Shown here: positions 383-44,887 of the stretch, piece after piece | How the letters are laid out: each line of letters begins with the position of its first letter | How positions within the stretch are numbered: position 1 is the stretch's first letter | IMG/VR virus record: IMGVR_UViG_3300037042_006682 | Span: 32,001-96,000 of that record | Strand: one strand, 5' to 3' | Source of the DNA: a virus | Length of the DNA stretch: 64,000 nt | The notes under the pieces: model-generated | The model's input: the letters and a program-made list of their open reading frames with translations, nothing else | Databases searched by the model: none | Told to the model about the DNA's origin: nothing | Translations under genes and position numbers: made by a program

Positions 383-3300
383 CTAACCCATCAAGAAGGG
401 CAACATGGGGACCTCGGCCTCGCCCTCGGGGCCCGGCTGCCCGGTCACCCACGCGAAATCCTCGGCCTCGGCGCGCCCCTCGCCTGGTTGTAGCACCCCG
501 AGGGGCACCCTCGGAACTTTTTTCAAAAGCCCCGCTACAACGCCCGCTACCGCATCGGCACAGTTGTGTACAAAGACCCCCACCGCCAGCGCGAAGTTAT
601 GATGAATATCTACGGTCATGTCAAAGACCGGCGCCGCCTCCAAGGGCTCCACGTGGGCCACGCAATACTCATGGGGCTGCCCCGGCGGCTGCCAAGACAG
701 GGGCATCAACAGATCCCCTGGCCTCAAGGCATGCGCTTCACAGAAGGTCCCCGCCCACAGCATAACCTCATGGTCAGGCGTGCAATCAAAGAACAGCCCC
801 GTCTCCAGCCAAACGCGGAGCATCTCGCACTCCCCCACTAGGTGCACATTGCGCGCCCACGCGGGCACCACGTCCCCATTGGCATCGCACGCATAGCTCC
901 AAAACTCGCGCCCCACCAGCTCACGTATGGGCACCGCCCTCCCATCCAGCATGGCAATCTTTGTCTCCCCAGAAAGGCAATCCTTCCCACCCGCCACGGG
1001 ATGGTCGATCTTGCCGCGGAGGCGATCGTGCTCTAGGGCCCGCAGCTCCCCGAGCAGGGGCGCGTGGGGGTACAACTCGATGCGCCGCTCGTAGATCGCC
1101 GAGCGCAGGGCCTCGTAGGGCACCATCGTCGCATCCACGCTCAAGATCTCCGAGGCCACGCCGCGCCGCTTCATATGCTGCAGAGTATCGACCGCTTGGT
1201 ATTGATCTGTCGAGAACCCGATCAACACAAACCCGTGTGCCTGGATGTCATAGATCACTGCCCGGATGTCGGCGAGCTGAATCTGCTCCCCCGGCGGGGG
1301 CCGCACCTGCAGCACGAGGTCGATCACGAAGGTCGGCGCGAGGTCCGTGTAGTGATCGCCCTCAGGCGTCCGCCGCACGACCTCCACCCAGCGCTCTATG
1401 TGCCCGCACGCGATCCCCGTGGCATCTCCTGACAGCGAGGTGTCGATGTGGACATAACGCAGGGCCCGCGGATTGCGCAGGGGCGTCCAGGCCTCCTCCG
1501 TAAACCCGCCCGGCAGGCGCCGCACCGAGGCCCTGGCCAGCTGATACCAGTGGATCACGAGGGGCTGCCCATACTGCCACGTCTGGTGATCTGCGGGGTG
1601 GCGCCGCGCCGGGTTCACAGCCTCCTGGATCTTCTCCGTGCGCTGGATGAACACGCTGATGGCCGTCGTGGGGACGCCCGCGATGTCGCGGATCGCATCC
1701 TCCAAGTTGGACTCGAAGTCCACGCGGTACTCCTCGGGAACCGCGATCACGCGCGCCTCGTCGGGGAGGGTCGCAAGGACCACCTCCTCGCCGGGGGGCA
1801 AGATGCGGCTGCGCAGGGAGCTGCCCCCGCAGAGCACCTGGAAGGTGCGCCCGCTGAAGGAGCCCGGCGGCTTGACCTCCCACGTGGCCATCTCCATCGC
1901 GTAGATCGAGGGGTCGTGGTGGGCCGCCGCGAGGCGCCGATCGATGAACGACCCCACCGTGTTCGCGCTCGACACCATCACGATCATGCCGGGGAGGTCC
2001 CCGCTCGCCTGCACGAAGCGCGACTTGATGCGGCGCTCCAGGGAGCGGTACGTGACCTCGGCGTGGTCGTAGTGCGCGAGGCTCTTCTGCTGGCCGTCTG
2101 CCGTGCGGATCTTCTGCTTGGTGGAGCGCACAAAGTTGGTGTTATGCACCACCACCCCATCCGCCACGAAGGTCTGGAACTCCGTCTCGATCGCGTAGGT
2201 CTGCTCGGGGGGCAACGGCGTCACCGCCGTCACGCGGGTCAGGCGGAGGTCGACGGGGAGGTCGGTGACGCGACAACGCTCGGGTCGGACGCCCCAGGCG
2301 GAGTCACGCATACCAGCAATCGCTGCCGCACGCGCCGTTGGGCAAGCCCATCCATGAATGCCTGGTTGATGAATGGTCCATCCCACACGGACGGGATGGT
2401 AGATCCGTTGATAACGATAAGGAACGGCTGCTGTTGCCGTTGGCAGTGCCCCCACATCGCCAACAACCGCGCTCTTGTTCGAGGCGCATAGAACGATGTC
2501 TTGTCCTTCCCCTCGACCACCACCGTCACCCCGTCGGCGCGATCCACCTCGAAGTCCGCCACCGTCAACCGCTGCTGTCCCCCGATCTCGTATGACACAA
2601 ACGGCAGTTGATCCTCGCCCCGGATCGCCACCACCCCCTCCTGCGCCATCAGGGCTTGCACCAGCACCAACTCCGCATCCGACCGACACGGTATCCGCTG
2701 CCCATCCGGCCCCGTCACCCAGTGCGTGTATGTCCGCTTGCGATCTCGGATCGCCTGCGCGTTCCCCGCGGAGATGCGCGTCCGCGACGCCTCCGTGTGC
2801 GGCGTCCCCGGCCTCCCCAAACGCGCCTCGCGTAGACGCCGCCTGTGCGCCTTGCTGAGCGGCTTGCCATAGCGTGGATTGTCCGCCCCCCACATCACGG
2901 GCGGCAATGCCATGCACCCCTCGGCAACCGCCTGTTTGGCCCTCTCTGACATTCGTTCTCGGGCGGCCGGATCCTGCATGAGACGCTTGTGCGCCTCGGA
3001 CATCTTGATCCGCGTCTCCTCGCTCACCGGCTTCTGAATACGCCCTCGCTGTGCCTCGGACATCTTGCGCCGCGTCTCCGCGCTGTGGTGCCATCCCGTC
3101 CGCAGCTTGGCAATCTCGCGCCTCCGCTGCCGCTGCTCCTCGTTCGGCACCCACCCCTTGCAGCCCCGCCGCGCCTCGGACATCTTGCGCCGCGTCTCCG
3201 CGCTGGCCGTCCGCCCCGTGTTGATCTCGCTGAGCTTCTTGCGCGTCTCCTCGGTATGCGTCCGCCCCGTATTCGCCTCGGACATCTTGCGCAGCTCGTC

Positions 3301-5818
3301 TTCGGTATGACGCCGCCTCTTGCCCGCCTCGCTGAGCTTTCCTCGTGTCTCCACTGAGACCTCGCGGCCTGCACACGCCTCGCGCATCTTCTGCTTGGCC
3401 TCCTCCGTATGCTTCTTGCCCTTGCGCGCCTCGCTGATCTTGCGCCGCGCCTCCTCGCTGAACACACGCCCCTTGCCTGCCGCACTCAACTTCTCGCGAT
3501 GTTCGTCCGTCAACGGCTTCCCACGCTTCGCCGCGCTGACCTTCGCCCGCGCTTCTGCACTCAACGTCTGCCCTTTCCTCGGCATCCCGCACCTCAACGA
3601 CCAGTTCGTCCCCGACCCGCACGTCCCGCGCGTAGCGGTACACCAGCCACGCGCCCTCCCGCACCAACACCGGGTGGTCCAGCGAGGGCGCCACCGCGCC
3701 CCCATCATAGGCCAGCTCCACTAAAGGCTGGACCGTCGAGGGGCGGATGGCAAAGCGACCGTACCGCACGCGCTGCGTCGCGTGATCGAGGCACTTTACC
3801 CGCCATCGAGATCGCTCTTCTGGCGCCATTGCCACAAGCGCGCCCACTGACAGATTTGTCTGTAACACGCCGCTTTTACAATGTAAAGCAGAAGTTGATC
3901 GAACACACTCGTCGAGGGCCGCGGCGAAGGCGTTAGTGCCCATGGAGCGCTCGGCGAGGTAGCTCGCGACGATCATCTGCACGTTGTAGGGGAAGTACGT
4001 CGCCTCGGTGTGGACGTCCGGTTTGAAGTGCTCTTGGAAGTACGGGCTGATCGCGAGCTTGTTGTCGATGGCCGACTTGAGGACCTGGCGCGCGAGGACC
4101 AGGTTGCGGCTCACGAGCACGATGCTCATCTCGGAGCCCGGCGACATGCCGTAGGAGGCCTGCGGGTTCACGAGGCAGCTCAGCTCGTAGAGGAGGCGGC
4201 ACATGGCGATCGAGAGGGCGGTCGTGTTGTGTACCACCACGCCATCCGCCACGAAGTTGCGCGGCCCCGGCACCTCCACGTCGTACACGTCCTCCAGCTC
4301 CCCGCTGCCCGGATCGTAGGACACCACCTGGTCCCAGAACAGATCGCCCCACCACGCGCACCACGGCGGCAGCGTGAAGGCCTGCTGCATGCGCACGAAC
4401 TTGGGGCGCCCCTGGTAACGAGACGCGCGCCACGGCGACCAAGCCTCGTTCCGCATCGGCCCCAGCTCCCGCCGTAGGCGTCGCAGCACAGCCGCGTTCA
4501 CCGGCATGATGTCCACGTTGGTGTTGCTGGCGGTCGCCCGCGCCGTTGCGAGGATCGTCGCGCAGCGGTCTTCCTTGCCCAGCACGGGTCCCACCGCCGT
4601 CAGGAAGCGCTCCAGGTTGTCAGCCTCCGTGACGAACAGGCGCCAGGCCGGCTTGGTGCGGAGTTCCCCCTTGTGCGTGTAGGTCTTCTGGCAGGGGTAG
4701 ATCCGCGAGTGTACGCCGAAGCGCAGGAGCAACTGCCCCACGTCGCGCACGAAGCCCTCGCTGGCCAACGTCAGCTCTGCCTTGCACGGCGCCTTGGGCT
4801 CCAAAGAGCCATCCGTCGCCCACAACCGATTGAGGAACAGCCCCAACTGCCGATCGGAAAGGCCAAAGAAGGCGGAAGGCACACGCTTGTCTCGCGATAG
4901 ATGGGCAAGGTCGTATTTATCTCGCACCCACGTCGTCCCGCAAGCACGCCACTCCTCACACTGACGTCCTCTGGTATCACGCGAGGTATCCTGTGCCACG
5001 CTCTGCACCACCAAGCGCATCGCGTCGGAGACCACATGAAAGCGCTCCATCACAGGTCCTGGCTTGTTGCAGAACGTCCAATTACTGCTTGTGCAACTAC
5101 CGTTTGCCAGCATGAACGCCACGAACTCGACCTCGGCGTCCGTGACCTTCAAAGGGTGCTCCGGCGGTGGCAGCGTGCGCGCCGTCCCCACTAGGGATCC
5201 GGGCTGCATCTCGCCCGCGGGCCGATACCCGTCCGGCGTCAGCACGGGGTGGTCCGGCGTGACCTCCACCCGCTTGCCGCTCAGCAGGCGCAGCGTCCCC
5301 ACGGGTTTGCGCCCCGCACATGTAACAATTGCTGGGCGCGTAACGGTACATCCCCTGTCCTGATCATAGGCCGCCACGTGCACCGCCCCCATCTCGTTCA
5401 GGGGCACCTCGCTGATCACACGCTGCTGCCCCAGATGGGGATCGTACAGCGTGCTCCGCGCACCCAGACACTTCCCCCACCCCGTGCTGCCCCCCAGGAT
5501 GACCTCGCGGTAGTGCGCGCCCGGCTCGAAGATCTCGATGAGCTTGCGCCGCAGGACCGGGTAGAGCGTCTGGCAGGACTCCCCCAGGTAGTAGGGATCA
5601 TCAATGAAGGTCGCCATGTCGACGGGGGCCACGCGGTACCGCTTCGCGTAGCACTCGTTGACGATCTCGGGGCGCCCCGCCTGCTCCTCATACAGGAGGG
5701 CCTCGAAGAGGCGCCGCTCATCGGGGGGCAGCGCCGCGAAGCGCCGCAGGAGGGCCGCCCGGCGCTCGGCCGGCGTGCGAACCGTCCGCGCGCGCCCCTC
5801 GGGGGTGCGGACGATCAT
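383..5818 (-). CDS. terL: Terminase large subunit precursor with three inteins (1811 aa; about 668 aa after splicing)
   Basis: Spliced motifs: Walker A GGSTGWGK|TT, Walker B AAALDE|TNF, VSSA coupling motif, nuclease HIDTSLSGD and KD|CAD; precedes the portal gene. Confidence 0.92.
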   Translation of the reverse strand: MIVRTPEGRARTVRTPAERRAALLRRFAALPPDERRLFEALLYEEQAGRPEIVNECYAKRYRVAPVDMATFIDDPYYLGESCQTLYPVLRRKLIEIFEPGAHYREVILGGSTGWGKCLGARSTLYDPHLGQQRVISEVPLNEMGAVHVAAYDQDRGCTVTRPAIVTCAGRKPVGTLRLLSGKRVEVTPDHPVLTPDGYRPAGEMQPGSLVGTARTLPPPEHPLKVTDAEVEFVAFMLANGSCTSSNWTFCNKPGPVMERFHVVSDAMRLVVQSVAQDTSRDTRGRQCEEWRACGTTWVRDKYDLAHLSRDKRVPSAFFGLSDRQLGLFLNRLWATDGSLEPKAPCKAELTLASEGFVRDVGQLLLRFGVHSRIYPCQKTYTHKGELRTKPAWRLFVTEADNLERFLTAVGPVLGKEDRCATILATARATASNTNVDIMPVNAAVLRRLRRELGPMRNEAWSPWRASRYQGRPKFVRMQQAFTLPPWCAWWGDLFWDQVVSYDPGSGELEDVYDVEVPGPRNFVADGVVVHNTTALSIAMCRLLYELSCLVNPQASYGMSPGSEMSIVLVSRNLVLARQVLKSAIDNKLAISPYFQEHFKPDVHTEATYFPYNVQMIVASYLAERSMGTNAFAAALDECVRSTSALHCKSGVLQTNLSVGALVAMAPEERSRWRVKCLDHATQRVRYGRFAIRPSTVQPLVELAYDGGAVAPSLDHPVLVREGAWLVYRYARDVRVGDELVVEVRDAEERADVECRSAGEGQRGEAWEAVDGRTSREVECGRQGACVQRGGAAQDQRGAQGQEAYGGGQAEDARGVCRPRGLSGDTRKAQRGGQEAASYRRRAAQDVRGEYGADAYRGDAQEAQRDQHGADGQRGDAAQDVRGAAGLQGVGAERGAAAAEARDCQAADGMAPQRGDAAQDVRGTARAYSEAGERGDADQDVRGAQASHAGSGRPRTNVREGQTGGCRGVHGIAARDVGGGQSTLWQAAQQGAQAASTRGAFGEAGDAAHGGVADAHLRGERAGDPRSQADIHALGDGAGWAADTVSVGCGVGAGASPDGAGGGGGDPGRGSTAVCVIRDRGTAAVDGGGLRGGSRRRGDGGGRGEGQDIVLCASNKSAVVGDVGALPTATAAVPYRYQRIYHPVRVGWTIHQPGIHGWACPTARAAAIAGMRDSAWGVRPERCRVTDLPVDLRLTRVTAVTPLPPEQTYAIETEFQTFVADGVVVHNTNFVRSTKQKIRTADGQQKSLAHYDHAEVTYRSLERRIKSRFVQASGDLPGMIVMVSSANTVGSFIDRRLAAAHHDPSIYAMEMATWEVKPPGSFSGRTFQVLCGGSSLRSRILPPGEEVVLATLPDEARVIAVPEEYRVDFESNLEDAIRDIAGVPTTAISVFIQRTEKIQEAVNPARRHPADHQTWQYGQPLVIHWYQLARASVRRLPGGFTEEAWTPLRNPRALRYVHIDTSLSGDATGIACGHIERWVEVVRRTPEGDHYTDLAPTFVIDLVLQVRPPPGEQIQLADIRAVIYDIQAHGFVLIGFSTDQYQAVDTLQHMKRRGVASEILSVDATMVPYEALRSAIYERRIELYPHAPLLGELRALEHDRLRGKIDHPVAGGKDCLSGETKIAMLDGRAVPIRELVGREFWSYACDANGDVVPAWARNVHLVGECEMLRVWLETGLFFDCTPDHEVMLWAGTFCEAHALRPGDLLMPLSWQPPGQPHEYCVAHVEPLEAAPVFDMTVDIHHNFALAVGVFVHNCADAVAGVVAGLLKKVPRVPLGVLQPGEGRAEAEDFAWVTGQPGPEGEAEVPMLPFLMG
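563..979 (-). mobile_element. TerL intein 3, mini-intein (139 aa, no endonuclease)
   Basis: CLSGETKIAMLDG...CTPDHEV...VFDMTVDIHHNFAL...VFVHN|C; inserted in the nuclease D-x-x-D motif. Confidence 0.92.
2141..3907 (-). mobile_element. TerL intein 2 (589 aa) hosting an out-of-frame endonuclease gene
   Basis: CVRSTSAL...SLDHPVLV (block B)...TYAIETEFQTFVADGVVVHN|T; the central ~450 aa are low-complexity text read from the alternate frame of the nested gene. Confidence 0.88.
2239..3585 (-). CDS. Nested NUMOD3-repeat + PD-(D/E)xK (TnsA-N-like) putative homing endonuclease, +1 frame inside TerL intein 2 (448 aa)
   Basis: SD GAGGTG then ATG (MPRKGQ); about 13 repeats like HTEETRKKLSEINTGR; C-terminal RSDAE...VADFEV...VVEGK; own TGA stop. 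Confidence 0.85.
   Translation of the reverse strand: MPRKGQTLSAEARAKVSAAKRGKPLTDEHREKLSAAGKGRVFSEEARRKISEARKGKKHTEEAKQKMREACAGREVSVETRGKLSEAGKRRRHTEDELRKMSEANTGRTHTEETRKKLSEINTGRTASAETRRKMSEARRGCKGWVPNEEQRQRRREIAKLRTGWHHSAETRRKMSEAQRGRIQKPVSEETRIKMSEAHKRLMQDPAARERMSERAKQAVAEGCMALPPVMWGADNPRYGKPLSKAHRRRLREARLGRPGTPHTEASRTRISAGNAQAIRDRKRTYTHWVTGPDGQRIPCRSDAELVLVQALMAQEGVVAIRGEDQLPFVSYEIGGQQRLTVADFEVDRADGVTVVVEGKDKTSFYAPRTRARLLAMWGHCQRQQQPFLIVINGSTIPSVWDGPFINQAFMDGLAQRRVRQRLLVCVTPPGASDPSVVASPTSPSTSA
4226..5470 (-). mobile_element. TerL intein 1 with in-frame LAGLIDADG endonuclease (415 aa)
   Basis: CLGARSTL...VTPDHPVLT...FMLANGS...LNRLWATDG...VYDVEVPGPRNFVADGVVVHN|T; inserted in Walker A. Confidence 0.93.
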
Positions 5819-27478: not shown

Positions 27479-28222
27479 TTACTCGCCATTAGATGGACCC
27501 TCCTTGTTTGAAACAGATGCTTCTGCTTTCAAAGCACATCTCCGCTTTGCGGAAGCACGCATCTTTATCTTTGTTTCTTCTGAAATAACCCGTCCCTTTA
27601 ATGCAGCACTAAGCTTGTTCTTTGTTTCATCAGAAAACACCCTTCCCTTATGAGCATCACTCATTTTTCGCTTTGCATCATCCGAGTGGCGCTTACCAGT
27701 GTTTATCTTTTTAAGCTTATCTTTCGTTTCATCAGAAACCTTCTTTCCAGCCATGCTCTTTCCAAGTCGTCTGGCACGTTCACGCTGCTCATCAGTTGTA
27801 ATACATTTCAACAATTCACTGTGACGAGTGCGCATCTCATCTGTCCAAACACGATTTCTATTTGCCGCAGCTACAGCCTCTCCAATATAAGCAGGCCGCT
27901 TTCTCCATCCACCGCGTCCACTAACAGAAGGAAGATGGTTATATCGAAGATCAACCGGAGTATTATCTATAAACTCCTGTTCTGCTTCCCTCAAACCATC
28001 AACATCATCAACACGTCTAAGGATTAAGAAATCAAAGCTATCAGCACCAAAAATAGCAAAGTCATGGGTGAGCAGGCTGTTTGAACGTCTGCCCGTTGAT
28101 AAGCAATACAAGTGCTGGGAAATCCTTCTCTTCATGTTCTTTGTTGATCCAATATAAATCATCCAGTTTGTTTTATTTTTAATGCAATAAACACCAGGCC
28201 CTCTGTCGAATACATCACTCAT
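27479..28222 (-). CDS. Free-standing GIY-YIG homing endonuclease with NUMOD3 repeats
   Basis: GVYCIKNK...IYIGST...R...H; HSDDAKRKMS-type repeats; strongly AT-rich relative to its flanks. Confidence 0.9.
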   Translation of the reverse strand: MSDVFDRGPGVYCIKNKTNWMIYIGSTKNMKRRISQHLYCLSTGRRSNSLLTHDFAIFGADSFDFLILRRVDDVDGLREAEQEFIDNTPVDLRYNHLPSVSGRGGWRKRPAYIGEAVAAANRNRVWTDEMRTRHSELLKCITTDEQRERARRLGKSMAGKKVSDETKDKLKKINTGKRHSDDAKRKMSDAHKGRVFSDETKNKLSAALKGRVISEETKIKMRASAKRRCALKAEASVSNKEGPSNGE

Positions 28223-34032: not shown

Positions 34033-34062
34033 CACTTAACCTACCACTGGAGGTTTGTCAAC
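34033..34062 (-). promoter_or_regulatory. sigma70-like promoter (GTTGACAAAC, -10 TAAGTG)
   Basis: TTGACA-17 bp-TAAGTG, overlapping the helicase 3' end. Confidence 0.55.
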
Positions 34063-37000
34063 GGCCAGGCACCCCTGCGCTTCCTCCCCCGGCAGCGCCA
34101 CCCCCATGCGGCGATAAAATTTGTCGCGCCCCCTTGCCTTGCGCTCGCTCCACGCCACCTTGGGATCCCGCACGTCCACCACCACCGGCGTGGGCTTGCC
34201 CGTGCACTGCCCCGCCCGCCAGGGGCAGTAGTGCGCGCACTTCTCGGGGGCCGGCGTGCACCACCGCCGCACCCGGCCGATCGCCTGCTCCGCATCCCCC
34301 AGGGGGGTCGCCAGCACGATCACGTCCAGGGCGGACACGTCGAGGCCCTCCGCGACGAGCTGGATCGTGCAGAGCAACACGTTCGCGCGCTCCGCCTCCC
34401 GCAGCGCCTCGCGCGTCAGGGTGCGCTTGGCCTCCCCCTCCTCCACGGTGAACCACTGCCCCGTGTAGGGCGCGATGGCCACCGGGAACGGCGGGGGCGC
34501 CACCTCCAGGATCTTGCGCAAGTCCGCCCGGAACGCCCGCAGGTGCTCCAGCCGATGGCTCACAACCATCACCTTGCGCCCCTTGCGCACCGCGATGGCG
34601 ATGTCCTCCGCGATGTGCCGCGTGCGCGCCGCGTCCTCCCCGAGCTGGCTGATCACCTGCGCGCTGTTCATGCGCATCGCGCTCACCCGGTAGTCCCCGC
34701 GCCGGATCCCCGTCAGCTCGCTGTCCGACTGCAGGAGGCGCACCCCGAACGGCATCGACTGGGCCTGCATGGTGTGCAGGATCGGCCCGATGTGGTGGAA
34801 GAACACGGGCTCCGCCCGATCCGCGCGCCGCGGCGTCGCCGAGAGCCCCAGGCGGTACGCCGCCATGAAGCGGTGCGCCACGCTGCTCCACACCTCAGAA
34901 CCAATATGATGACAATTATGAACAACAATACCACCATCAAGAACATAGGATGGATGGCCCGAGACGCTCAAATTGAAGACATCAACGCAATCTCCATCAG
35001 TGCGGAATCCAAGTCGCTCAAAATCCTCTCGTTGCGCAACCGCAACACCAACCACCCTTTCTCCCTCAAAAAACGATCCTTCTTCGCATCGCGGTCCTTC
35101 GTCTTTACTGAGTGAGAATACCCATCCACCTCGATCGCTAGCTTCATCATCGGATGTGCGACGTCTATCTTGTAGCAATTCGGCAACCTGGATGGATTGT
35201 TCTTCGGCCGTGATGTCAGAACAACGAACTCCGCGATCCATCCATCTCCCAGCGCTTCTAGCAACACACGCTGTGGAACAGGCATGTCGCATCCATTCCC
35301 CCCTCGTTTTTTTAACGGCACAAACCCATTCCTCTGTTTGGTCTCCATAACCTTTGCGATCACGCCAAGCATGCGCATAGGGTTCTTGTCGCGCATACGG
35401 AGCGAAGCGCTTTCCCTCAGCGAAGAATCCTTCGCATGTCTTTCTAGCATCATAGAGGAATACACCGTCGAATGATCCAGCATGTAAAGACTGTGTGCTT
35501 TCTGCTGACAAGACACCGAACAAAACCTTCTTTGCCTCCCCATCAGTTTGTTCTCTCCGCAAAAAGCGCAAAAAGGACGACCATTCATAGTCCTCTGTCG
35601 TATCCCCTGTGCCGAACATGTCATCGAGCAGAACTTCCGTCCCTTCCTGACGCTGTTCTCCTTCCCGCAAAACGCACATGTTCCCGGTGTGTTCTTGACT
35701 GCCTTCTCCATGTTCCATCCTCATCCTGGTGCAATCATCAAAACTTACCAGAACGTCTCCACACAACGAACTGGCATGCTTCCATCCATCAACAGTCAAA
35801 AACGGATGGTTCTTGGTACATACAATATCAACACCACACAAAAGGCTAACAACAACACAATCGCTCACACACACGCTCCGCTTAAAAACATGTTCAACAA
35901 CACCTTCCCCAAGAGCATTAAAAACCGTCATCCCAATCACAACATCCCCAATAGCCACCTTGCCATCTGGGGTATCGATCTTCTGCTCAGCGGGAAAGCA
36001 CTCATCTGAAACGAACAGCCCGAACGCCTCGTACAGGGCGCGCGGGTAGCGCTGCGTCTGCACGTCCTTGGCCAGGGACTGGATCATGGCGATCACGAAG
36101 TCCTTGTCACGGTAGTCGCAGGTGTCCTGGCGCACCACGCCGATCCGCGCGGCCGGCAGCACGTCCCGGATGCGGGCCGCCCACTGCTCCAGGAAGAACT
36201 CCTTGTGGACCACCACGAGCGTGGCCCGCCCCAGGCGCCGCGCCAACTCCACGGCCAGGATGGTGTTATGCGTGGGCACGCAATTCCGCGTCAGGTAAAG
36301 GTGGTTCGGCGCATCAACCGCAATGCACGTTGCCAATCCTTTCCCAATGGCCGTCACAGACTCCACCGCACGCCCGACCTTGCGTTGCCAGCCATTGCGA
36401 TAAAACTCCGCCTTCTTGCGTGAAAATCTAAAGGGGCAAATGTCTGCTGGGAGTTTTATGTGTAGTCGAAAGCTATCAAACCATCGCGAGTGCACTCCAT
36501 CCTTTGTGTATCGCGTCTGACGTTTCACCAGTTTGCACGTACCCCCCAGAGAGAAAACAATCCGCTGGACCGCATGGGCGATCTGGTCTGATACCGTAGC
36601 ATACTCAACACTTCCGCCTCCACTTGCATATCCGTCTGTATCAAACAGTCCCTGGAGAAGGGATACCCGTGTTGCGACAGATCCACCTTCGTAAACTGTC
36701 GGAATAAATTTATCGTGTGCGGTCAGCCCGAGCATGCCTAGCTTGCGCATGCGCTTTCTGAACGATCCTTCTTGTTGACCAAATTTGATCGGTGGAGAAA
36801 AGCGATAAACCGCAGTATAGCCAGCACGTTGCTTGAGTGCCATTACACGATTTGGCGGCTCTACTGTCATCATATCTACGATCTCTCTATCGGGTGTGCA
36901 TACAGAGATCCCATTGGTGTTGCAAAAGTGGCCATCCCCAATGAGAACACCGAGCGTGTATGGCTCAAAAATCATTTCGCCATCTACCCCCTCAAGGGGG

Positions 37001-37707
37001 GCCATCGTTGGAAGCCACAGTAAACGCCCAACGCTCGTGCGCAGAGTCTCCCGCGCTAGGTCATGCGTCGAAATCGTAACCGTTGGCGCATCACGCTTAC
37101 GCCGCTTCACCAGCGTCCACAGGTGATCCCCATCACAATCCACGTGCGTTCCATCAGAAAATGCGACGCGGAATAGGTCGCGCTCCCCCTGCGGGAAGAC
37201 ACCCGTCACGCGGTGGAATCCACCATCGGTGCCTGCAGCCTCGTCACCAACACGCACCTCCTCAATGGAAGTCCATCCGCGTCTAAGCAAGACAGGCTCT
37301 CCGTGCGCGAGCGCCTTCCCGCTCCCGCAGCCCGCGCAGAGGATGCCCCCGCCCCAGGGGTGCGCCGTGAGGCGGTGCTCCAGCACGGCCAGGGCCTCCG
37401 CCTGCTGCGCGAAGGGGCCGTCCGCCCGGTAGCGCGAGGCCATGCGCTGCATGGGCTGCCCCATGCTCACCTGGACGATCTCCTCGTTCTGTCCCTTGGC
37501 CGAGGCGCGGTAGAACCCGCGCGGCACCCCGAAGAGCCCCACCTCGGGGCGGTCCCGGTAGAGCATGAGGGGCTTGGGCTGCGCGACCCCCGCCACGTCC
37601 GTGGTCAGGATCGGCTGCACGGTCAGCGCCGTGCGGAGCGCCCGCAGGTTGCCCTCGCTCAGCGCCCCCCGCTCCAGCCACGCCCACCCGTCGATGATCA
37701 CGCGCAT
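34036..37707 (-). CDS. Superfamily 2 DExH helicase (UvsW/XPB-like) with two inteins (about 511 aa after splicing)
   Basis: GCGSGK|T, SDE|CH, GLSATP, EGLDV, QAIGR; SD GGAGG before MRVII. Confidence 0.9.
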   Translation of the reverse strand: MRVIIDGWAWLERGALSEGNLRALRTALTVQPILTTDVAGVAQPKPLMLYRDRPEVGLFGVPRGFYRASAKGQNEEIVQVSMGQPMQRMASRYRADGPFAQQAEALAVLEHRLTAHPWGGGILCAGCGSGKALAHGEPVLLRRGWTSIEEVRVGDEAAGTDGGFHRVTGVFPQGERDLFRVAFSDGTHVDCDGDHLWTLVKRRKRDAPTVTISTHDLARETLRTSVGRLLWLPTMAPLEGVDGEMIFEPYTLGVLIGDGHFCNTNGISVCTPDREIVDMMTVEPPNRVMALKQRAGYTAVYRFSPPIKFGQQEGSFRKRMRKLGMLGLTAHDKFIPTVYEGGSVATRVSLLQGLFDTDGYASGGGSVEYATVSDQIAHAVQRIVFSLGGTCKLVKRQTRYTKDGVHSRWFDSFRLHIKLPADICPFRFSRKKAEFYRNGWQRKVGRAVESVTAIGKGLATCIAVDAPNHLYLTRNCVPTHNTILAVELARRLGRATLVVVHKEFFLEQWAARIRDVLPAARIGVVRQDTCDYRDKDFVIAMIQSLAKDVQTQRYPRALYEAFGLFVSDECFPAEQKIDTPDGKVAIGDVVIGMTVFNALGEGVVEHVFKRSVCVSDCVVVSLLCGVDIVCTKNHPFLTVDGWKHASSLCGDVLVSFDDCTRMRMEHGEGSQEHTGNMCVLREGEQRQEGTEVLLDDMFGTGDTTEDYEWSSFLRFLRREQTDGEAKKVLFGVLSAESTQSLHAGSFDGVFLYDARKTCEGFFAEGKRFAPYARQEPYAHAWRDRKGYGDQTEEWVCAVKKTRGEWMRHACSTACVARSAGRWMDRGVRCSDITAEEQSIQVAELLQDRRRTSDDEASDRGGWVFSLSKDEGPRCEEGSFFEGERVVGVAVAQREDFERLGFRTDGDCVDVFNLSVSGHPSYVLDGGIVVHNCHHIGSEVWSSVAHRFMAAYRLGLSATPRRADRAEPVFFHHIGPILHTMQAQSMPFGVRLLQSDSELTGIRRGDYRVSAMRMNSAQVISQLGEDAARTRHIAEDIAIAVRKGRKVMVVSHRLEHLRAFRADLRKILEVAPPPFPVAIAPYTGQWFTVEEGEAKRTLTREALREAERANVLLCTIQLVAEGLDVSALDVIVLATPLGDAEQAIGRVRRWCTPAPEKCAHYCPWRAGQCTGKPTPVVVDVRDPKVAWSERKARGRDKFYRRMGVALPGEEAQGCLAVDKPPVVG
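34915..36000 (-). mobile_element. Helicase intein 2 (362 aa) hosting an out-of-frame endonuclease gene
   Basis: CFPAEQKIDTPDG...CTKNHPFLT...VFNLSVSGHPSYV...IVVHN|C; splits the DExH box. Confidence 0.9.
34968..35711 (-). CDS. Nested zinc-finger + DUF559/Vsr-like endonuclease, +1 frame inside helicase intein 2 (247 aa)
   Basis: SD GAGG; two CAFCG...FCSxxC fingers; YKIDVA...LAIEVDGYSH...DAKKDRFLREKGWLVLR; own TGA stop. Confidence 0.88.
   Translation of the reverse strand: MEKAVKNTPGTCAFCGKENSVRKGRKFCSMTCSAQGIRQRTMNGRPFCAFCGENKLMGRQRRFCSVSCQQKAHSLYMLDHSTVYSSMMLERHAKDSSLRESASLRMRDKNPMRMLGVIAKVMETKQRNGFVPLKKRGGNGCDMPVPQRVLLEALGDGWIAEFVVLTSRPKNNPSRLPNCYKIDVAHPMMKLAIEVDGYSHSVKTKDRDAKKDRFLREKGWLVLRLRNERILSDLDSALMEIALMSSI
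36265..37314 (-). mobile_element. Helicase intein 1: class 3 (Ala1, WCT) intein with LAGLIDADG endonuclease (350 aa)
   Basis: GK|ALAHGEPV; block B DGDHLW; block F TCIAVD; block G PTHN|T; LGVLIGDG and LQGLFDTDG. Confidence 0.9.
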
Positions 37708-37722
37708 GGGGTCTTCCCTCCG

Positions 37723-37803
37723 TGAGCCAGGCGGGCCTCGAACCCGCAACCTCCCCCTCACTGGTACCGTGGGGGCGCGCTACCTACTTGGCGCCACTGA
37801 CCC
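37723..37803 (-). tRNA. tRNA-like gene with an abnormal anticodon arm (identity unassignable)
   Basis: GGGTCAG/CTGGCTC-A acceptor; GCGC D stem; CCCCC/GGGGG stem enclosing 13 nt; AGGTT variable loop; GCGGG-TTCGAGG-CCCGC T arm; CCA not encoded. Confidence 0.65.
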
Positions 37804-37863: not shown

Positions 37864-38244
37864 TCATTTTTTCTTGTTCTTTAGCCTGTTGATCTCGTGA
37901 TCAGTGTTCGCTTTTCGACACAAGGCACACCGACATCCGTGTGTTTTGTATCCCGACAATGTTCCATGTGATTCCTCTAAGTCGAATTTAGGCTTATGGT
38001 GCAATCTGTTGTGGCATGTAACGCATATCACAACACACTTGGCTAACTTCTCTTCGCGTCGTTTTTCCGACCAAGACCACACCTTGTGGTCAACCTTATT
38101 TTCTGGGTTTAAGTGGTGTACTAATAAATTCACCGACGACCCACACCACACACAAACGGGATGTTCTTTCATCCATGCGTCGCGTCTCCTCTTAATCCAT
38201 TCACGTTGGTAATCACGTTGCTTTTGGCATACTCCGTATCCCAC
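37864..38244 (-). CDS. Free-standing HNH endonuclease
   Basis: CVWCGS...VHH...CVTCHNRLH, plus a HGT..GY..HGCRC..C finger; AT-rich. Confidence 0.85.
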   Translation of the reverse strand: MGYGVCQKQRDYQREWIKRRRDAWMKEHPVCVWCGSSVNLLVHHLNPENKVDHKVWSWSEKRREEKLAKCVVICVTCHNRLHHKPKFDLEESHGTLSGYKTHGCRCALCRKANTDHEINRLKNKKK

Positions 38245-42285: not shown

Positions 42286-44301
42286 TTACCTCGGCTTATC
42301 GCCAGTGAAGATCAGCTCTACCACGTCATCGAGCGCGCCCTCGCGGAGGTCGGCCCCTACCATCGCGATCGATACCGAGGTCTCGCTCAACATGTGGATC
42401 GTGCTAGTCTTGAGATACTCCTCCAGCTGGCTTAATTCCCCCCGCCGCCGGGGGATCGCGCTCATATTCGTCGTGATCAGCGTCGTACGGCAGTAGGCGC
42501 CCCGGAAGCGCAGCAGATCGTCTAGCAGGCGCTCCTCGGCCCCCTCCTTGTCGCGCACCCCCTTCCCGAGGTCGTCGAGCACGAGCACGTCCACGTCGAG
42601 GATGCGCTCCCAGAGGAGCTTCTCCCCCTCAAAGCCCTTACTCCCGAACTTGATGTCCTTGAGGGCCGCGGCCTCGATGAACAGCCCCGTGTTCCCGCGC
42701 CGGCGCGCCTCCTTGAGGGCGATCACGGCCGCTGAAGTATTGTGACTAATGACGCCGCTTGACCAAAAAAGATGATCCTTGGGAACTACAAAATCATAAA
42801 CGTCTTGTTTTTTAGATTGCACTACGCTCTTAACCTTAAAATACCTAACAGAAGACATCGAAAGCGACTGTAGCGAAGCAAGATCCTTGTTCCCTGGCAC
42901 TATATCAATCAATGAATCCACAACCCTCTTTAGAACAGATACAGAAATCACTCCTCGCTTAGCTGACGAACTAAAAAGACCGTATAGTTTTTCACCCCAA
43001 AAATACCTTAATCCACGCTTTTCAATCCTTGCAATGGCAAAGCCAGCATCTATTAGTATTCTGTCAATTGTATCCTTTTTTACAGGTACAACAGTCATAC
43101 ACACATTGCTGCTTCTGACTTTATCTGCTGCAACACGCAACAGTTCAACTTTGTCCTTTGTTATATCAGAAAACCCTATGTTCTCCTCAAATGCAACTAA
43201 TGCCTCCCCTGAAATATACAGTCTCCAATACTCACGCTTGATACGCGCCCCATTCGTCGCCATTTTCATACATGGTTTTATTGTTGAATTCACACCAAAC
43301 GCCATTAGTACAATTTGCAGATCCCTAACAAGCCTCTGCGACTTGCTGGTGTACTCGACAACACACCCACAAATCGAGCCATCCCCTGAAAAAAGCGAAC
43401 GCATAAAGCTACGCAAAACACTAGACGGAGAAGACAGTAATGAATCACAGATACAAACACTCTCGCTTGTGCCGCATCCCAATGCAGTCATAAACACATT
43501 CAATTTTTTTCCACCACGTATACTCGTATCAATACATCCGCTCTCTTGAACCACATCATGTCCACGACAAAAACCAAGGCTCTCCATAACGCTAACAACG
43601 TGCTCTGTGGCAAGACTGTTAGAATTTGAAAATACATTCTTACAATTTACCACACGACCCTCAGCTATGAACCATCCGAGCATAGACGCCACGTCACAAT
43701 CAATAACGACATCTCGGTCGCCAATGGTAATGCGCATTGGATCGCCATCGCTGACAACGCAACGAGCATCAACAGCAACAAAATCATCCTCACAAAGATC
43801 TCCCATGCGCACCATGGCATCACCACTATCCCGCCATACACGCACACGGTGTTCCTCTGTCGCCGTGACACACAATCCATTGGACAGTTCCATGCAAAGT
43901 GTAGGCTGTATGCCATCCGCATAAACCTGCGTTGCCACAGCATAATGCCCATCCCCCGCATACACAGGCATTTCCACGGGAGAACACGCCAAAATTGGAC
44001 TCGCCAACGATCCAATCCTATGCAACCGCCCATTGGCTACCACGATCTCTCTATCCGAAAGGCACTTCCCCGTGCCGTTCTTCCCGTGCAGCACGAGGCC
44101 CACGCCGCGCGCCAGCATGTCGTCCAGCGCCACGAGGTAGTTGTACAGCTCCATCTTGTGCAGCCCCGCGCTCACCCCGTCGAAGTGCGCGTCGCGATAG
44201 CGCAAGGGGATCCGCATCCGCTCCATGTCCTTGAGGTTCAGCTGCCGGCGCATCCCACTGCGCGCCTCGGCCACCTGCTCCAGGTCCTGCTCGTCAGTCA
44301 T
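42286..44301 (-). CDS. DnaC/IstB-like AAA+ helicase loader with intein (about 229 aa after splicing)
   Basis: IPLRY, HGKNGTGK|T, VLVLDDLG, LITTN. Confidence 0.88.
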   Translation of the reverse strand: MTDEQDLEQVAEARSGMRRQLNLKDMERMRIPLRYRDAHFDGVSAGLHKMELYNYLVALDDMLARGVGLVLHGKNGTGKCLSDREIVVANGRLHRIGSLASPILACSPVEMPVYAGDGHYAVATQVYADGIQPTLCMELSNGLCVTATEEHRVRVWRDSGDAMVRMGDLCEDDFVAVDARCVVSDGDPMRITIGDRDVVIDCDVASMLGWFIAEGRVVNCKNVFSNSNSLATEHVVSVMESLGFCRGHDVVQESGCIDTSIRGGKKLNVFMTALGCGTSESVCICDSLLSSPSSVLRSFMRSLFSGDGSICGCVVEYTSKSQRLVRDLQIVLMAFGVNSTIKPCMKMATNGARIKREYWRLYISGEALVAFEENIGFSDITKDKVELLRVAADKVRSSNVCMTVVPVKKDTIDRILIDAGFAIARIEKRGLRYFWGEKLYGLFSSSAKRGVISVSVLKRVVDSLIDIVPGNKDLASLQSLSMSSVRYFKVKSVVQSKKQDVYDFVVPKDHLFWSSGVISHNTSAAVIALKEARRRGNTGLFIEAAALKDIKFGSKGFEGEKLLWERILDVDVLVLDDLGKGVRDKEGAEERLLDDLLRFRGAYCRTTLITTNMSAIPRRRGELSQLEEYLKTSTIHMLSETSVSIAMVGADLREGALDDVVELIFTGDKPR
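42739..44064 (-). mobile_element. DnaC intein with LAGLIDADG endonuclease (442 aa)
   Basis: CLSDREIV...ATEEHRV...LGWFIAEG...FSGDG...VYDFVVPKDHLF...ISHN|T; strongly AT-rich. Confidence 0.92.
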
Positions 44302-44887
44302 GGCGTCCACCGCCCTCCGGGCCGTCCCACTCGTCAAAGTTCTTCTTGCGCTCGCGCGCCTCGTCCTTCGCCGCCCCCTTGCGCGGCGCCCGCAGCGCGG
44401 GGACCTCGCCCCGCAACTGCCAGGCGTCGAAGACGCGCCCCCGCGCAGCATACAGCATATCGATCGTGGGGGGATCCCCCTTGGCCGCGCGGGCCATGGT
44501 CGCCTCGACCACAGCGCGCACGAGGTCCCAGCCGTACTCCTGCACGAGCAGCTTGGCCCAGCGCTTCTGCACGACGGTCCAGGCCGGGGGCTGGTAGTCC
44601 TTCCCGTAGCGCTCCTGCATGGCCCCCCGCCATACGCGCGCTACGTCGCCCGCGTTGCGGGCCCGCGCCGCTGCCGCTGTGGCATCCGCCGCCGCGGTCT
44701 CCACCTGCGCCGCCGTCATGGACTCCGCCCCCTCGAGGGCCCGCGGGGCCCGCCCCTCGGGGCGCTGCGCCCGCATCACCGCCTTCAGGGCCCGTGCCGC
44801 GAGCGACCGCGCCTGCGCCTCAGCCGAGATCGCCTGCAGTTCCGCGAGCCCCGGCCGCCGCCGCGTTGTCGTTGGATTCTGTGTCAT
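44294..44887 (-). CDS. Hypothetical protein, possibly replication-initiator related
   Basis: Coupled immediately upstream of the DnaC-like gene; call is positional. Confidence 0.4.
   Translation of the reverse strand: MTQNPTTTRRRPGLAELQAISAEAQARSLAARALKAVMRAQRPEGRAPRALEGAESMTAAQVETAAADATAAAARARNAGDVARVWRGAMQERYGKDYQPPAWTVVQKRWAKLLVQEYGWDLVRAVVEATMARAAKGDPPTIDMLYAARGRVFDAWQLRGEVPALRAPRKGAAKDEARERKKNFDEWDGPEGGGRHD

What the first reader, a model, noticed from the sequence alone, without database searches (positions are those of the whole stretch)
34915..36000. Second, independent intein with a +1-frame nested endonuclease (helicase DExH intein)
Seen: same architecture and same +1 phase as the TerL case, but a different host gene, intein sequence and nuclease family. 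The nested gene (35711-34968) encodes two CxxC...FCSxxC fingers and a DUF559/Vsr-like domain (EVDGYSH). It starts after block B at GAGG-N7-ATG and stops inside block F, where intein DVFNLS reads as MSSI*. This segment is much less GC-rich than the genome, so 247 stop-free codons in both frames are hard to explain by composition. Established: Vsr-like EDxHD nucleases act as homing endonucleases. Inference: two convergent cases in one genome suggest a general class of inteins with overprinted endonucleases, which gene callers would miss.
Basis: partly seen in the sequence, partly recalled or inferred. Interest (0 to 1): 0.88.

Follow-up and report, generated by a model that had tools for sequence, protein, structure and literature searches.

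The report
Helicase intein hiding out-of-frame nuclease
A self-splicing protein insert (intein) in a phage helicase gene carries, one base out of step in its middle, a complete separate gene for a DNA-cutting enzyme that probably spreads the insert; the layout is real and is the normal state of a large phage intein family, though the general idea was first published in 2025.

Summary
Window 34915-36000 (-) is a 362-residue class-1 intein at the DE|CH motif of a phage SF2 helicase (34036-37761). A 247-codon gene (34968-35711) lies in its +1 frame and encodes two zinc ribbons plus a DUF559/EDxHD Vsr-like nuclease.

Chance is excluded. Synonymous permutation of the nuclease codons left the intein frame open in 0 of 20,000 trials.

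The layout is conserved:
- 75 of 80 IMG/VR relatives of the nuclease are nested the same way, always +1.
- Of 106 inteins picked only by their N-terminal junction, about 96 carry a full +1 nuclease.
- Cultured phages CP-T1, MR14 and phi673 have it unannotated.

Substitutions pile up at nuclease third codon positions. AlphaFold gives pLDDT 88 for the nuclease frame. The intein frame folds as a HINT domain joined by a roughly 210-residue low-confidence linker.

Likely mechanism (inferred): the precursor is read through and spliced, while the nuclease starts at its own SD-ATG and drives homing at GAYGAR|TGYCAY.

Gosselin, Arsenault and Gogarten (bioRxiv 2025) already described out-of-frame intein endonucleases of other types, and this scan already followed up the TerL case in the same genome. 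I found no report of this family, nuclease type, frame, site or breadth.

The parts
34036..37761 (-). Host gene: SF2 (DExH) helicase precursor of 1241 aa, carrying two inteins
   Evidence: ORF, translation. Pfam ResIII E 1.7e-12, Helicase_C, Intein_splicing. PHROG DNA helicase.
34915..36000 (-). Intein 2 (362 aa, class 1), inserted at helicase motif II DE|CH
   Evidence: Cys1 at 36000-35998, His-Asn at 34920-34915, Cys+1 at 34914-34912. C1, H65, H361 and N362 are invariant in 44 relatives.
35707..36000 (-). HINT N-lobe (intein residues 1-98) with block A (CFPAEQ) and block B (TKNHPF, 35800-35817)
   Evidence: AlphaFold pLDDT 95-98. Profile matches to gp41-1, PI-MtuI and BIL domains cover these positions. 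Foldseek top hit is the gp41-1 intein.
35719..35722 (-). Shine-Dalgarno-like GAGG, 7 nt upstream of the nuclease ATG
   Evidence: Sequence. An SD core lies upstream of the nuclease ATG in 21 of 47 family members against a 16% background, p = 2.5e-6.
34968..35711 (-). Nested +1-frame gene: 247-aa zinc-ribbon + EDxHD (DUF559/Vsr-like) nuclease, stop included
   Evidence: Pfam DUF559 E 8e-12. AlphaFold mean pLDDT 88.1. Fold hits 3r3p (I-Bth0305I), 3hrl and 1vsr. Profile against PDB: 3hrl 8.7e-12, 3r3p 1.1e-3.
35508..35678 (-). Two CxxC...CxxxC zinc ribbons of the nuclease (residues 12-68), presumed DNA-binding
   Evidence: Sequence. C48, C51, C64 and C68 are invariant or nearly so in relatives. 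Weak profile matches to FCS/MYM/L24e-type zinc ribbons.
34977..35279 (-). Catalytic Vsr-like domain of the nuclease (residues 145-245) with E194, D196, H200, D208, K211
   Evidence: These residues are invariant in 78 sequences. pLDDT 87-98. Aligned to 3hrl and 3r3p.
35071..35706 (-). Intein-frame linker (intein residues 99-310): kept open, but poorly conserved and predicted mostly unstructured
   Evidence: pLDDT mostly 37-53. Majority-residue conservation 0.25, against 0.41 and 0.49 in the HINT lobes. Composition rich in R, S, E and G. No convincing Pfam hit.
34915..35070 (-). HINT C-lobe (intein residues 311-362) with block F (DVFNLSVSGHPSY) and block G (VVHN)
   Evidence: pLDDT 92-97. Family consensus VYNLEVE..P.YFA.G.LVHN.
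34968..35070 (-). Stretch where two structured, conserved segments are co-encoded: the nuclease C-terminus (GWLVLRLRN...) and the first strands of the HINT C-lobe (ERVVGVAV...DVFNLS)
   Evidence: G219, W220, R224 and N227 are invariant in the nuclease frame. R315 is nearly invariant in the intein frame.
34909..34914 (-). C-extein side of the presumed homing site (TGTCAT = Cys-His of DECH). The N-extein side is GATGAG at 36001-36006.
   Evidence: The junction consensus GAYGAR|TGYCAY holds in 47 non-redundant loci. That set was chosen by requiring DE and Cys1, so the N-side consensus is partly built in.

Best explanation
This is a bipartite mobile element built from one stretch of DNA read in two frames.

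**Frame 0 (the helicase frame)** encodes a class-1 intein. A HINT N-lobe and a HINT C-lobe are joined by a linker of about 210 residues that has no conserved sequence. The whole precursor is translated through this linker. The HINT lobes then dock and splice (Cys1, block-B Thr-x-x-His, terminal His-Asn, Cys+1), which restores helicase motif II, DECH.

**Frame +1** of the linker, running on into block F, encodes an independent 247-aa protein. It has two zinc ribbons, a helical spacer and an EDxHD (Vsr-like, DUF559) nuclease domain. It is translated from its own GAGG-N7-ATG start on the same mRNA. This protein is the homing endonuclease. It is expected to cut intein-less alleles at or near GAYGAR|TGYCAY, so that repair copies the intein and the nuclease into them.

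**Why this phase is cheap to evolve.** Any stop in the intein frame needs a T at a nuclease wobble position, and NNT to NNC is always synonymous. The intein frame can therefore be kept open at no amino-acid cost to the nuclease.

**Shown here:** both ORFs, their family membership, the conserved architecture, the selection pattern and the predicted folds.

**Inferred:** splicing, internal initiation, cleavage specificity and homing.
For: **Both frames are real and non-random.**
- Host frame open in 0 of 20,000 synonymous permutations; the third frame has 19 stops.
- Across 46 relatives, 8.2 stops per locus are expected and none is observed.

**The nuclease is a real protein.**
- Pfam DUF559 above its cut-off.
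- Profile hits to 3hrl (8.7e-12) and I-Bth0305I 3r3p (1.1e-3).
- AlphaFold pLDDT 88 with top fold hits 3r3p, 3hrl and 1vsr.
- Catalytic E, D, H, D and K invariant in 78 sequences.

**The intein is intact.**
- C1, H65, H361 and N362 invariant.
- HINT lobes at pLDDT above 92, with a low-confidence linker.
- Matches to gp41-1, RecA and DnaB inteins.

**The architecture is conserved.**
- +1 nesting at DE|CH in phi673, MR14 and CP-T1.
- 75 of 80 IMG/VR relatives of the nuclease are nested, never in +2.
- In a census that did not use the nuclease, about 96 of 106 informative viral loci and 36 prokaryotic contigs carry a full +1 nuclease.

**Selection acts on the nuclease frame.**
- 41-53% of substitutions fall at nuclease codon position 3.
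- Amino-acid identity is higher in the nuclease frame in every divergence bin, for example 0.66 against 0.47.

**Independent initiation.** SD cores are enriched upstream of the nuclease ATG (21 of 47 against 16%, p = 2.5e-6).

**Mobility and the homing cycle.**
- The same intein-nuclease unit sits at the DE|x site of SF2, SNF2-like and clamp-loader-like ATPases.
- Mini-intein derivatives exist, with or without a nuclease tail remnant.
- Free-standing relatives lie directly 5' of intein-less DExH helicases.
- In one pair the intein is 98% identical while the exteins are 82% and 90%.
Against: - There is no experimental evidence for splicing, for translation of the +1 ORF or for cleavage.
- Only 45% of family members have a recognisable SD, so another route of expression cannot be excluded for some (frameshifting, leaderless or coupled initiation).
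- Co-divergence of the HINT N-lobe and the nuclease is weak (Spearman 0.18, though only 1 of 2000 permutations reached it).
- Comparison of intein and extein identity gives mixed signals, so ongoing homing is not demonstrated for this particular phage.
- The genome holds a single copy, and no close intein-less relative was found in cultured phages.
Confidence: 0.82

Rival explanations
1. The nuclease is real and expressed, but it has been domesticated. It would serve the phage, for example by degrading host or competitor DNA, by excluding related phages or in recombination, rather than driving homing of the intein. The intein merely shelters its gene.
For: - The nuclease frame is under purifying selection across very divergent phages, which also fits a useful function.
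- The same window carries many other nuclease genes: GIY-YIG at 27479-28222, an HNH-like ORF at 37864-38244 and the NUMOD3 ORF in TerL.
- Evidence for recent transfer is mixed.
Against: - The nuclease is almost never found away from one precise site class (DE|C) in P-loop ATPase genes, or directly next to an intein-less DExH helicase.
- Nuclease-less mini-intein derivatives exist at the same site, as the homing cycle predicts.
- The closest characterised relative, I-Bth0305I, is a homing endonuclease (PMC3239194).
Confidence: 0.1
2. The nuclease is not started independently. It would be made by programmed +1 ribosomal frameshifting from the helicase/intein frame, giving an N-extein, HINT-N and nuclease fusion.
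For: - Only 21 of 47 loci show an SD core upstream of the first ATG.
- The nuclease frame is often open for several to tens of codons upstream of its first ATG.
- One contig (L067/L093) and one prokaryotic contig (L263) have the nuclease in frame with the N-extein and the start of the intein; for L067 the sequence shows the full N-extein and HINT-N part fused to it.
Against: - The window has a canonical GAGG-N7-ATG.
- SD enrichment is highly significant family-wide.
- Free-standing relatives start at the equivalent position.
- The stop that opens the nuclease frame lies only a few codons upstream of the ATG in the window (frame open from intein residue 93.3, ATG at 96.3).
- No slippery motif was sought or noticed.
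Confidence: 0.05
3. The gene works as a fractured gene. Ribosomes would rarely complete the linker, and the helicase would be assembled by trans-splicing of separately made N and C parts, as in the split-intein loci of Dassa et al. 2009.
For: - The HINT domain is most similar, among solved structures, to the naturally split gp41-1 intein from those loci.
- In those loci the endonuclease 3' end overlaps the downstream intein part by 6-69 bp (PMC2677866), which recalls the overlap with block F here.
Against: - The intein frame has no stop across 247 overlapped codons, where 11 are expected. The same holds in all 46 relatives tested. Only selection for read-through explains this.
- No start-plus-SD for a separate C-terminal piece was sought or seen.
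Confidence: 0.02
4. It is an artefact: either a canonical in-frame DUF559 intein with assembly or sequencing frameshifts, or a chance ORF in low-GC DNA.
For: - In-frame DUF559 inteins do exist in UvrD-type helicases.
- The record is a metagenome-derived virus contig.
Against: - The same +1 phase, with the intein frame open, recurs in more than 130 independent loci, including three finished cultured-phage genomes.
- Two compensating errors at the same places in all of them is not credible.
- Permutation tests exclude chance.
Confidence: 0.01

Closest known systems
Non-canonical actinobacteriophage inteins with a homing endonuclease in a separate ORF (Gosselin, Arsenault and Gogarten, bioRxiv 10.1101/2025.01.02.630785)
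   Same: - An intact splicing domain with the endonuclease encoded between the splicing blocks in a different reading frame.
- The host frame is kept open.
- Origin by capture of a free-standing endonuclease gene is proposed.
- One of their types is VSR-like with an HHpred link to I-Bth0305I.
   Different: - Their same-strand case is endonuclease VII-like in 'frame 3', and their VSR-like case is on the antisense strand.
- Their hosts are DNA polymerase, minor capsid, TerL and thymidylate synthase, in actinophages only.
- Here the VSR-like nuclease is on the same strand in +1, at the DE|CH motif of helicases and other P-loop ATPases.
- Here it is found in phages of Proteobacteria and Actinobacteria and in contigs from many other phyla, and it is the dominant state of the whole intein family.
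Fractured genes: split inteins with an intervening free-standing VSR-like or GIY-YIG endonuclease gene (Dassa et al. 2009, PMC2677866)
   Same: - The same nuclease superfamily sits between the N and C parts of an intein in phage replication genes.
- The endonuclease 3' end overlaps the downstream intein part.
- The HINT domain here is closest to gp41-1 from those loci.
   Different: - There the host gene is physically broken into separate ORFs that are joined by trans-splicing.
- Here the intein frame is continuous through the whole nuclease gene.
I-Bth0305I and the EDxHD family of homing endonucleases (Taylor et al. 2011, PMC3239194; PDB 3r3p)
   Same: - The Vsr-like catalytic fold and the E-x-D-x-x-H...D motif.
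- A phage mobile-element context.
   Different: - I-Bth0305I lies in a group I intron in recA, so there is no dual coding with a host frame.
- The N-terminal DNA-binding part here consists of two zinc ribbons plus a helical spacer.
In-frame DUF559 inteins at DE|CQD of UvrD-type helicases
   Same: - The same nuclease family (32-43% identity).
- A similar block F/G (VYDITVE...LVHN|C).
- An equivalent Walker-B/motif-II insertion site.
   Different: - The nuclease domain is fused in frame 0 and lacks the zinc ribbons.
- The host is an SF1 helicase.
ShiLan-type insertion with a hidden out-of-frame HNH endonuclease in a phage methylase (Arsenault et al. 2025, PMC11855218)
   Same: An endonuclease gene is overprinted out of frame inside an insertion whose host frame stays open.
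   Different: The ShiLan insertion has no splicing domain and is thought to remain in the protein, and its nuclease is HNH. Here a complete HINT intein is present.

Membership tests
Class 1 intein (HINT splicing domain) | N-terminal nucleophile Cys/Ser at position 1 and a Cys/Ser/Thr at +1 of the C-extein | tested here: met
   Cys1 (TGC at 36000-35998) and Cys+1 (TGT at 34914-34912). C1 is invariant in 44 relatives.
Class 1 intein (HINT splicing domain) | Block B Thr-x-x-His and terminal His-Asn (block G), with block F upstream | tested here: met
   T62-K-N-H65 (TKNHPF), DVFNLSVSGHPSY and VVHN362. H65, H361 and N362 are invariant.
Class 1 intein (HINT splicing domain) | HINT fold | tested here: met
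   AlphaFold pLDDT above 92 for residues 1-98 and 311-362. Foldseek top hits are the gp41-1, DnaB and RecA inteins, probability 1.00. Profile E 1e-18 to gp41-1. The Pfam Intein_splicing hit itself is below its cut-off (16.9 against 35.8 bits).
Class 1 intein (HINT splicing domain) | Protein splicing activity | not testable with these tools
   Inferred from intact catalytic residues and from selection to keep the frame open in an essential-looking replication helicase.
EDxHD / DUF559 (Vsr-like PD-(D/E)xK) homing endonucleases | Sequence membership in DUF559 (PF04480) | tested here: met
   E 8e-12, 45.4 bits against a cut-off of 20.6. Profile against PDB: 3hrl 8.7e-12 and 3r3p 1.1e-3.
EDxHD / DUF559 (Vsr-like PD-(D/E)xK) homing endonucleases | Catalytic motif E-x-D-x-x-H followed by D (and K) | tested here: met
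   E194, D196, H200, D208 and K211 are invariant in 78 sequences.
EDxHD / DUF559 (Vsr-like PD-(D/E)xK) homing endonucleases | Vsr-like fold | tested here: met
   Foldseek: 3r3p with target TM 0.70, 3hrl 0.75 and 1vsr 0.44, probabilities 0.91-1.00. E-values are only 8e-3 to 0.16 because the domain is small.
EDxHD / DUF559 (Vsr-like PD-(D/E)xK) homing endonucleases | Site-specific cleavage of the element-less allele, and homing | not testable with these tools
   Inferred from the constant association with the DE|C site and from free-standing relatives next to intein-less helicases.
Inteins with an out-of-frame, same-strand endonuclease ORF (Gosselin et al. 2025) | Endonuclease ORF lies between the splicing blocks in another frame while the intein frame stays open | tested here: met
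   One difference: here the ORF runs on into block F and overlaps about 33 codons of the structured HINT C-lobe.
Inteins with an out-of-frame, same-strand endonuclease ORF (Gosselin et al. 2025) | Same nuclease type, frame and host as the described examples (endonuclease VII-like, 'frame 3', TerL and others) | tested here: not met
   The nuclease is DUF559/EDxHD in +1, in a DExH helicase. The paper lists no helicase host and no same-strand VSR-like case.
Split intein / fractured gene (Dassa et al. 2009) | Host gene interrupted by stops into separate N and C ORFs | tested here: not met
   The helicase frame is continuous over 1241 codons. Openness is non-random.

The most novel reading that the evidence does not exclude
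Overprinting would be the ancestral and dominant design of a large, apparently undescribed intein family, not a rare accident of endonuclease capture. This family targets the Walker-B/motif-II DE|C site of SF2, SNF2-like and clamp-loader-like ATPases in phages, and it occurs in contigs from more than 15 bacterial phyla. About 33 codons would be truly dual-coding for two folded segments, the nuclease C-terminal strand and helix and the HINT C-lobe. Free-standing, overprinted, in-frame (UvrD) and mini-intein forms would all be preserved as stages of one evolutionary cycle. The +1 phase would be favoured because every stop in the intein frame can be removed by a synonymous wobble T-to-C change in the nuclease.
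Probability: 0.5. Interest if true: 0.72.

Novelty: new variant of a known kind. Interest (0 to 1): 0.62.

Why it matters
- **Intein evolution.** It turns the 'splicing domain first, endonuclease captured later' model into something that can be studied. One nuclease family is seen here in four states: free-standing beside its target gene, overprinted in an intein, fused in frame, and lost from mini-inteins.
- **Overlapping genes.** Long, stably maintained overlapping genes are shown to be common in phage mobile elements. This gives a clean natural system for studying dual-coding constraints.
- **Annotation.** Gene callers report either the helicase or the nuclease, never both. The nuclease is missing from the GenBank records of CP-T1, MR14 and phi673.
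- **Tools.** The nucleases are a pool of candidate site-specific enzymes that probably recognise a very conserved ATPase motif. The inteins are compact HINT domains that tolerate a linker of 200 or more residues, which may interest protein engineers.

Tried and rejected
- A megablast of the helicase gene against cultured phages found nothing. The closest cultured helicases are below 30% identical, so no close intein-less allele was available to test recent homing in this phage.
It was replaced by a DNA pattern for DECFPAGT.
- That pattern gives many chance hits in prokaryotic genomes, with the host frame open for fewer than 100 codons. These were discarded.

**The Deinococcus Snf2 intein.** From memory, this spliced intein lies in a gene first annotated as two ORFs. 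I tried to learn whether it belongs to this family.
- The paper (PMC151952) is not held.
- A loose pattern scan of 151 genomes of the order of L258 gave only chance-level hits and one mini-intein.
- The question remains open.

**Weak results**
- Co-divergence of the HINT N-lobe and the nuclease was weak (r = 0.18). I therefore do not claim a single origin as shown.

**Checks on the 'TerL case'**
- I first looked for it at 42286-44451. That gene is an AAA ATPase with an ordinary in-frame LAGLIDADG intein.
- The real TerL case is at 383-5818.

**Rejected readings**
- Chance ORF.
- Sequencing frameshift.
- Split gene.
Full report
**What is there.** The window is bases 32001-96000 of a 161-kb IMG/VR virus record. 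On the minus strand, 34036-37761 is a 1241-codon ORF with ResIII and Helicase_C hits and a PHROG DNA-helicase match.

It carries two insertions of low GC, about 0.50-0.52 against 0.68 for the window. The second, residues 588-949 (window 36000-34915), matches the finding's coordinates exactly. It starts with Cys directly after ...FVSDE. It ends ...GGIVVHN directly before CHHIG, so it splits helicase motif II, DECH. It has the class-1 intein signature: Cys1, block B TKNHPF, block F DVFNLSVSGHPSY, terminal His-Asn and Cys+1.

**The nested gene.** ORF 35711-34968 (-) lies in the +1 frame (offset 2050, remainder 1 mod 3).
- Its 247-residue product hits Pfam DUF559 above the curated cut-off, E 8e-12.
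- It has two CxxC...CxxxC zinc ribbons and the motif E194-V-D196-G-Y-S-H200...D208..K211.
- A GAGG lies 7 nt upstream of the ATG.
- The stop is inside block F, where DVFNLS is read as MSSI-stop.

**More than chance.** With the nuclease protein held fixed, I permuted synonymous codons 20,000 times. The intein frame was never open, with a mean of 11 stops. The third frame has 19 stops. The same test on 46 relatives predicts 8.2 stops per locus, and none is observed in any of them.

**It is a conserved architecture, not a one-off.** A tblastn of the nuclease against cultured phages placed its homologues under plain 'helicase' annotations. These are Corynebacterium phage phi673, Pseudomonas phage MR14 and Vibrio phage CP-T1. 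In all three the homologue is a 212-249-codon ORF in the +1 frame of an intein at ...DE|CF(P/V)AGT...VHN|CHH....

In IMG/VR, 310 stretches encode relatives. Of the best 80, 75 are nested in the +1 frame of a long host ORF, and none is in +2.

To remove the bias of searching with the nuclease, I scanned for the DNA encoding the N-terminal junction DECFPAGT only.
- Of 106 informative viral loci, about 96 have a full-length nuclease homologue in +1.
- Five keep only a tail remnant.
- Two are clean mini-inteins of 130-141 residues.
- One has the nuclease in frame with the N-terminal part.
- Two are unclear.

The same pattern in one-genome-per-species prokaryotic assemblies gave 36 contigs with a full-length +1 nuclease, 34 of them with a clean intein junction. 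They come from many phyla, for example Ktedonobacter racemifer DSM 44963, Verrucomicrobium sp. BvORR106, Victivallis, Blastopirellula and cyanobacterial MAGs. That scan also gave five mini-inteins.

**Where it sits.** In the 47 non-redundant loci chosen by a DE junction and Cys1, the C-terminal junction is almost always VHN|CH.
- The flanking DNA is GAYGAR|TGYCAY. The selection itself fixes the N side.
- The hosts are mostly SF2 DECH helicases.
- They also include SNF2-like proteins (DE|SSILKN, DE|CHRIK) and clamp-loader-like AAA+ proteins (WLIDE|CHxLT; L007).

The unit has therefore moved between ATPase families that share the Walker-B/motif-II DE-x-H sequence. Gosselin et al. proposed the same route, shared nucleotide-binding motifs, for TerL-to-Cas4 switching.

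**Which frame is under selection.** I built codon alignments guided by the nuclease protein.
- 41-53% of differences fall at nuclease codon position 3, which is intein-frame position 1.
- Amino-acid identity is higher in the nuclease frame in every divergence bin: 0.35 against 0.20, 0.49 against 0.33, 0.66 against 0.47 and 0.75 against 0.61.
- In the intein-frame alignment the two HINT lobes are conserved. The linker is not, apart from shadows of the most conserved nuclease motifs.

**Folds.** With a 78-sequence alignment, AlphaFold gives the nuclease frame a mean pLDDT of 88.1. The best fold matches are the I-Bth0305I catalytic domain (3r3p), the DUF559 protein 3hrl and E. coli Vsr. The profile also finds 3hrl (8.7e-12) and 3r3p (1.1e-3) by sequence.

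The intein frame of the same DNA, with 44 sequences, behaves differently.
- pLDDT is 95-98 for residues 1-98.
- pLDDT is 92-97 for residues 311-362.
- pLDDT is mostly 37-53 in between.
- Its HINT part matches the gp41-1, DnaB and RecA inteins.

The nuclease ORF ends 17.7 codons before the intein end here, and 2.7-24.7 codons before it across almost all of the family. Its last 33 or so codons (GWLVLRLRN...) therefore overlap the first strands of the HINT C-lobe (ERVVGVAV...DVFNLS). Both readings are conserved and confidently folded, so this stretch is true dual coding.

**Expression.** An SD core lies 4-18 nt upstream of the first ATG of the nuclease frame in 21 of 47 non-redundant loci. The background inside the same inteins is 16% (p = 2.5e-6). 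The window has GAGG-N7-ATG. This supports independent initiation but does not prove it.

**Relatives in other arrangements.**
- Free-standing homologues lie directly upstream of intein-less DExH helicase genes in L004, L013 and L035. This is the classic position of a free-standing homing endonuclease gene beside its target.
- In-frame versions exist. Five UvrD-type helicases carry an intein ending LVHN|CQD, at motif II DE|CQD, with the DUF559 domain in frame 0 and no zinc ribbons.
- One contig (L067, same contig as L093) has the N-extein, HINT-N and nuclease in one frame and the C part in another. This is either a frameshift mutant or a step towards a split gene.
- Mini-inteins that keep only the nuclease tail (for example L131 and L157) show loss of the nuclease by deletion.

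Together these look like stages of the homing cycle and of endonuclease capture. The order of events was not tested.

**Mechanism proposed.** The precursor is translated through the linker, and the HINT lobes splice, restoring DECH. The nuclease is made separately from the +1 frame, cuts intein-less alleles near GAYGAR|TGYCAY, and is copied in together with the intein during repair.

The +1 phase is the easy one. In this phase a stop in the intein frame needs a T at a nuclease wobble position, and NNT to NNC is always synonymous. This follows from the genetic code. It is my inference, not a tool result.

**Comparison with what is known.** The idea is not new. Gosselin, Arsenault and Gogarten (bioRxiv 10.1101/2025.01.02.630785, version of Oct 2025) report actinophage inteins with endonucleases in separate ORFs.
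- Their types are antisense LAGLIDADG, antisense VSR-like and same-strand endonuclease VII-like in 'frame 3'.
- Their hosts are DNA polymerase, minor capsid, TerL and thymidylate synthase.

Other relevant work:
- Arsenault et al. 2025 describe a hidden out-of-frame HNH in a methylase insertion.
- Dassa et al. 2009 describe VSR-like endonuclease genes between split-intein halves.

I found no paper that joins inteins with DUF559, or that describes a same-strand VSR-like overprint, a DE|CH helicase host or this breadth. The library lacks most subscription journals, so prior description cannot be excluded.

This scan had already followed up the TerL case in the same genome and reached the same 'known kind, new nuclease' verdict. 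I confirmed only that the TerL ORF exists, is +1, is NUMOD3-rich and is unrelated to this nuclease.

**Verdict.**
- It is a new variant of a recently described kind. Its main added value is that it is the rule for a large and widespread intein family, rather than a rarity.
- Function as a homing endonuclease, splicing and internal initiation remain inferences.

Noticed in passing
window 36265-37314 (-): The same helicase has a first intein of 350 aa at the P-loop (GSGK|T). It starts with Ala rather than Cys/Ser and shows a Trp (DHLW), a block-F Cys (ATCIAVD) and VPTHN. By eye this is the class-3 WCT pattern. It has an in-frame LAGLIDADG_3 domain (Pfam E 2.8e-6).
   Followed up: partly
window 383-5818 (-), nested ORF 2239-3708 (-): A 1811-codon ORF, which earlier notes of this scan read as TerL, has Pfam Intein_splicing and LAGLIDADG_3 hits. 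It contains a 489-codon ORF in its +1 frame with four NUMOD3 motifs (E 3.6e-29). That ORF is unrelated to the helicase-intein nuclease. This is the 'TerL case' of the finding, already followed up by another agent.
   Followed up: partly
window 42286-44451 (-): A P-loop ATPase (GKNGTGK|C...SHN|T), next to a DnaB-like helicase gene, carries an ordinary in-frame LAGLIDADG intein in a 1.4-kb GC trough of 0.46.
   Followed up: partly
window 27479-28222 (-) and 37864-38244 (-): There are two low-GC free-standing nuclease-like genes. One is a GIY-YIG + NUMOD3 gene (Pfam). The other is a 126-aa ORF just upstream of the helicase with HNH-like CxxC/HH motifs by eye but no Pfam hit. The replication module is crowded with mobile nuclease genes.
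   Followed up: no
L001 (phi673) 2477-3115; L002 (MR14) 2393-3118; L003 (CP-T1) 2435-3184: Three finished GenBank phage genomes annotate gp43, gp44 and gp10 simply as 'helicase'. Neither the intein nor the +1 nuclease ORF is annotated.
   Followed up: yes
L004 3998-4594; L013 3306-3938; L035 3355-3999: Free-standing homologues of the nuclease end at or overlap the start of an intein-less DExH helicase gene (VVCDECHNF, VICDEIHSG, LIIDEAHRA). This suggests that the helicase gene was the nuclease's target before the intein captured it.
   Followed up: partly
P0040-P0044 (metagenomic and Singulisphaera UvrD-like helicases): These are canonical in-frame DUF559 inteins at DE|CQD of SF1 UvrD-type helicases. 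Several of these proteins hold a second intein at the P-loop. The 2025 survey states that VSR-like endonucleases in inteins were known only from split inteins, so these too may be unreported.
   Followed up: partly
L067 2898-5161 (same contig as L093); L263: In these variants the nuclease is in frame with the N-extein and the start of the intein, and the host frame closes early. For L067 the sequence shows the full N-extein and HINT-N part fused to the nuclease, with the HINT-C and C-extein part in the other frame. This is either a frameshift mutant or a step towards a split (fractured) gene.
   Followed up: partly
L131, L157 (viral) and L264 (prokaryotic): These are mini-inteins of about 136-153 aa at the same site. 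For L131 and L157 the residual match to the nuclease is a 51-codon piece in the +1 frame, where the nuclease tail overlaps the HINT C-lobe. They look like deletion derivatives that lost the nuclease.
   Followed up: partly
locus of P0003 (111-kb ENA contig, no DNA available): This is the closest relative of the window's nuclease (62% identity). There the gene caller called the nuclease and a separate 294-aa ResIII fragment after it, with nothing called for about 2 kb upstream. This is the mirror image of the GenBank mis-annotation.
   Followed up: no
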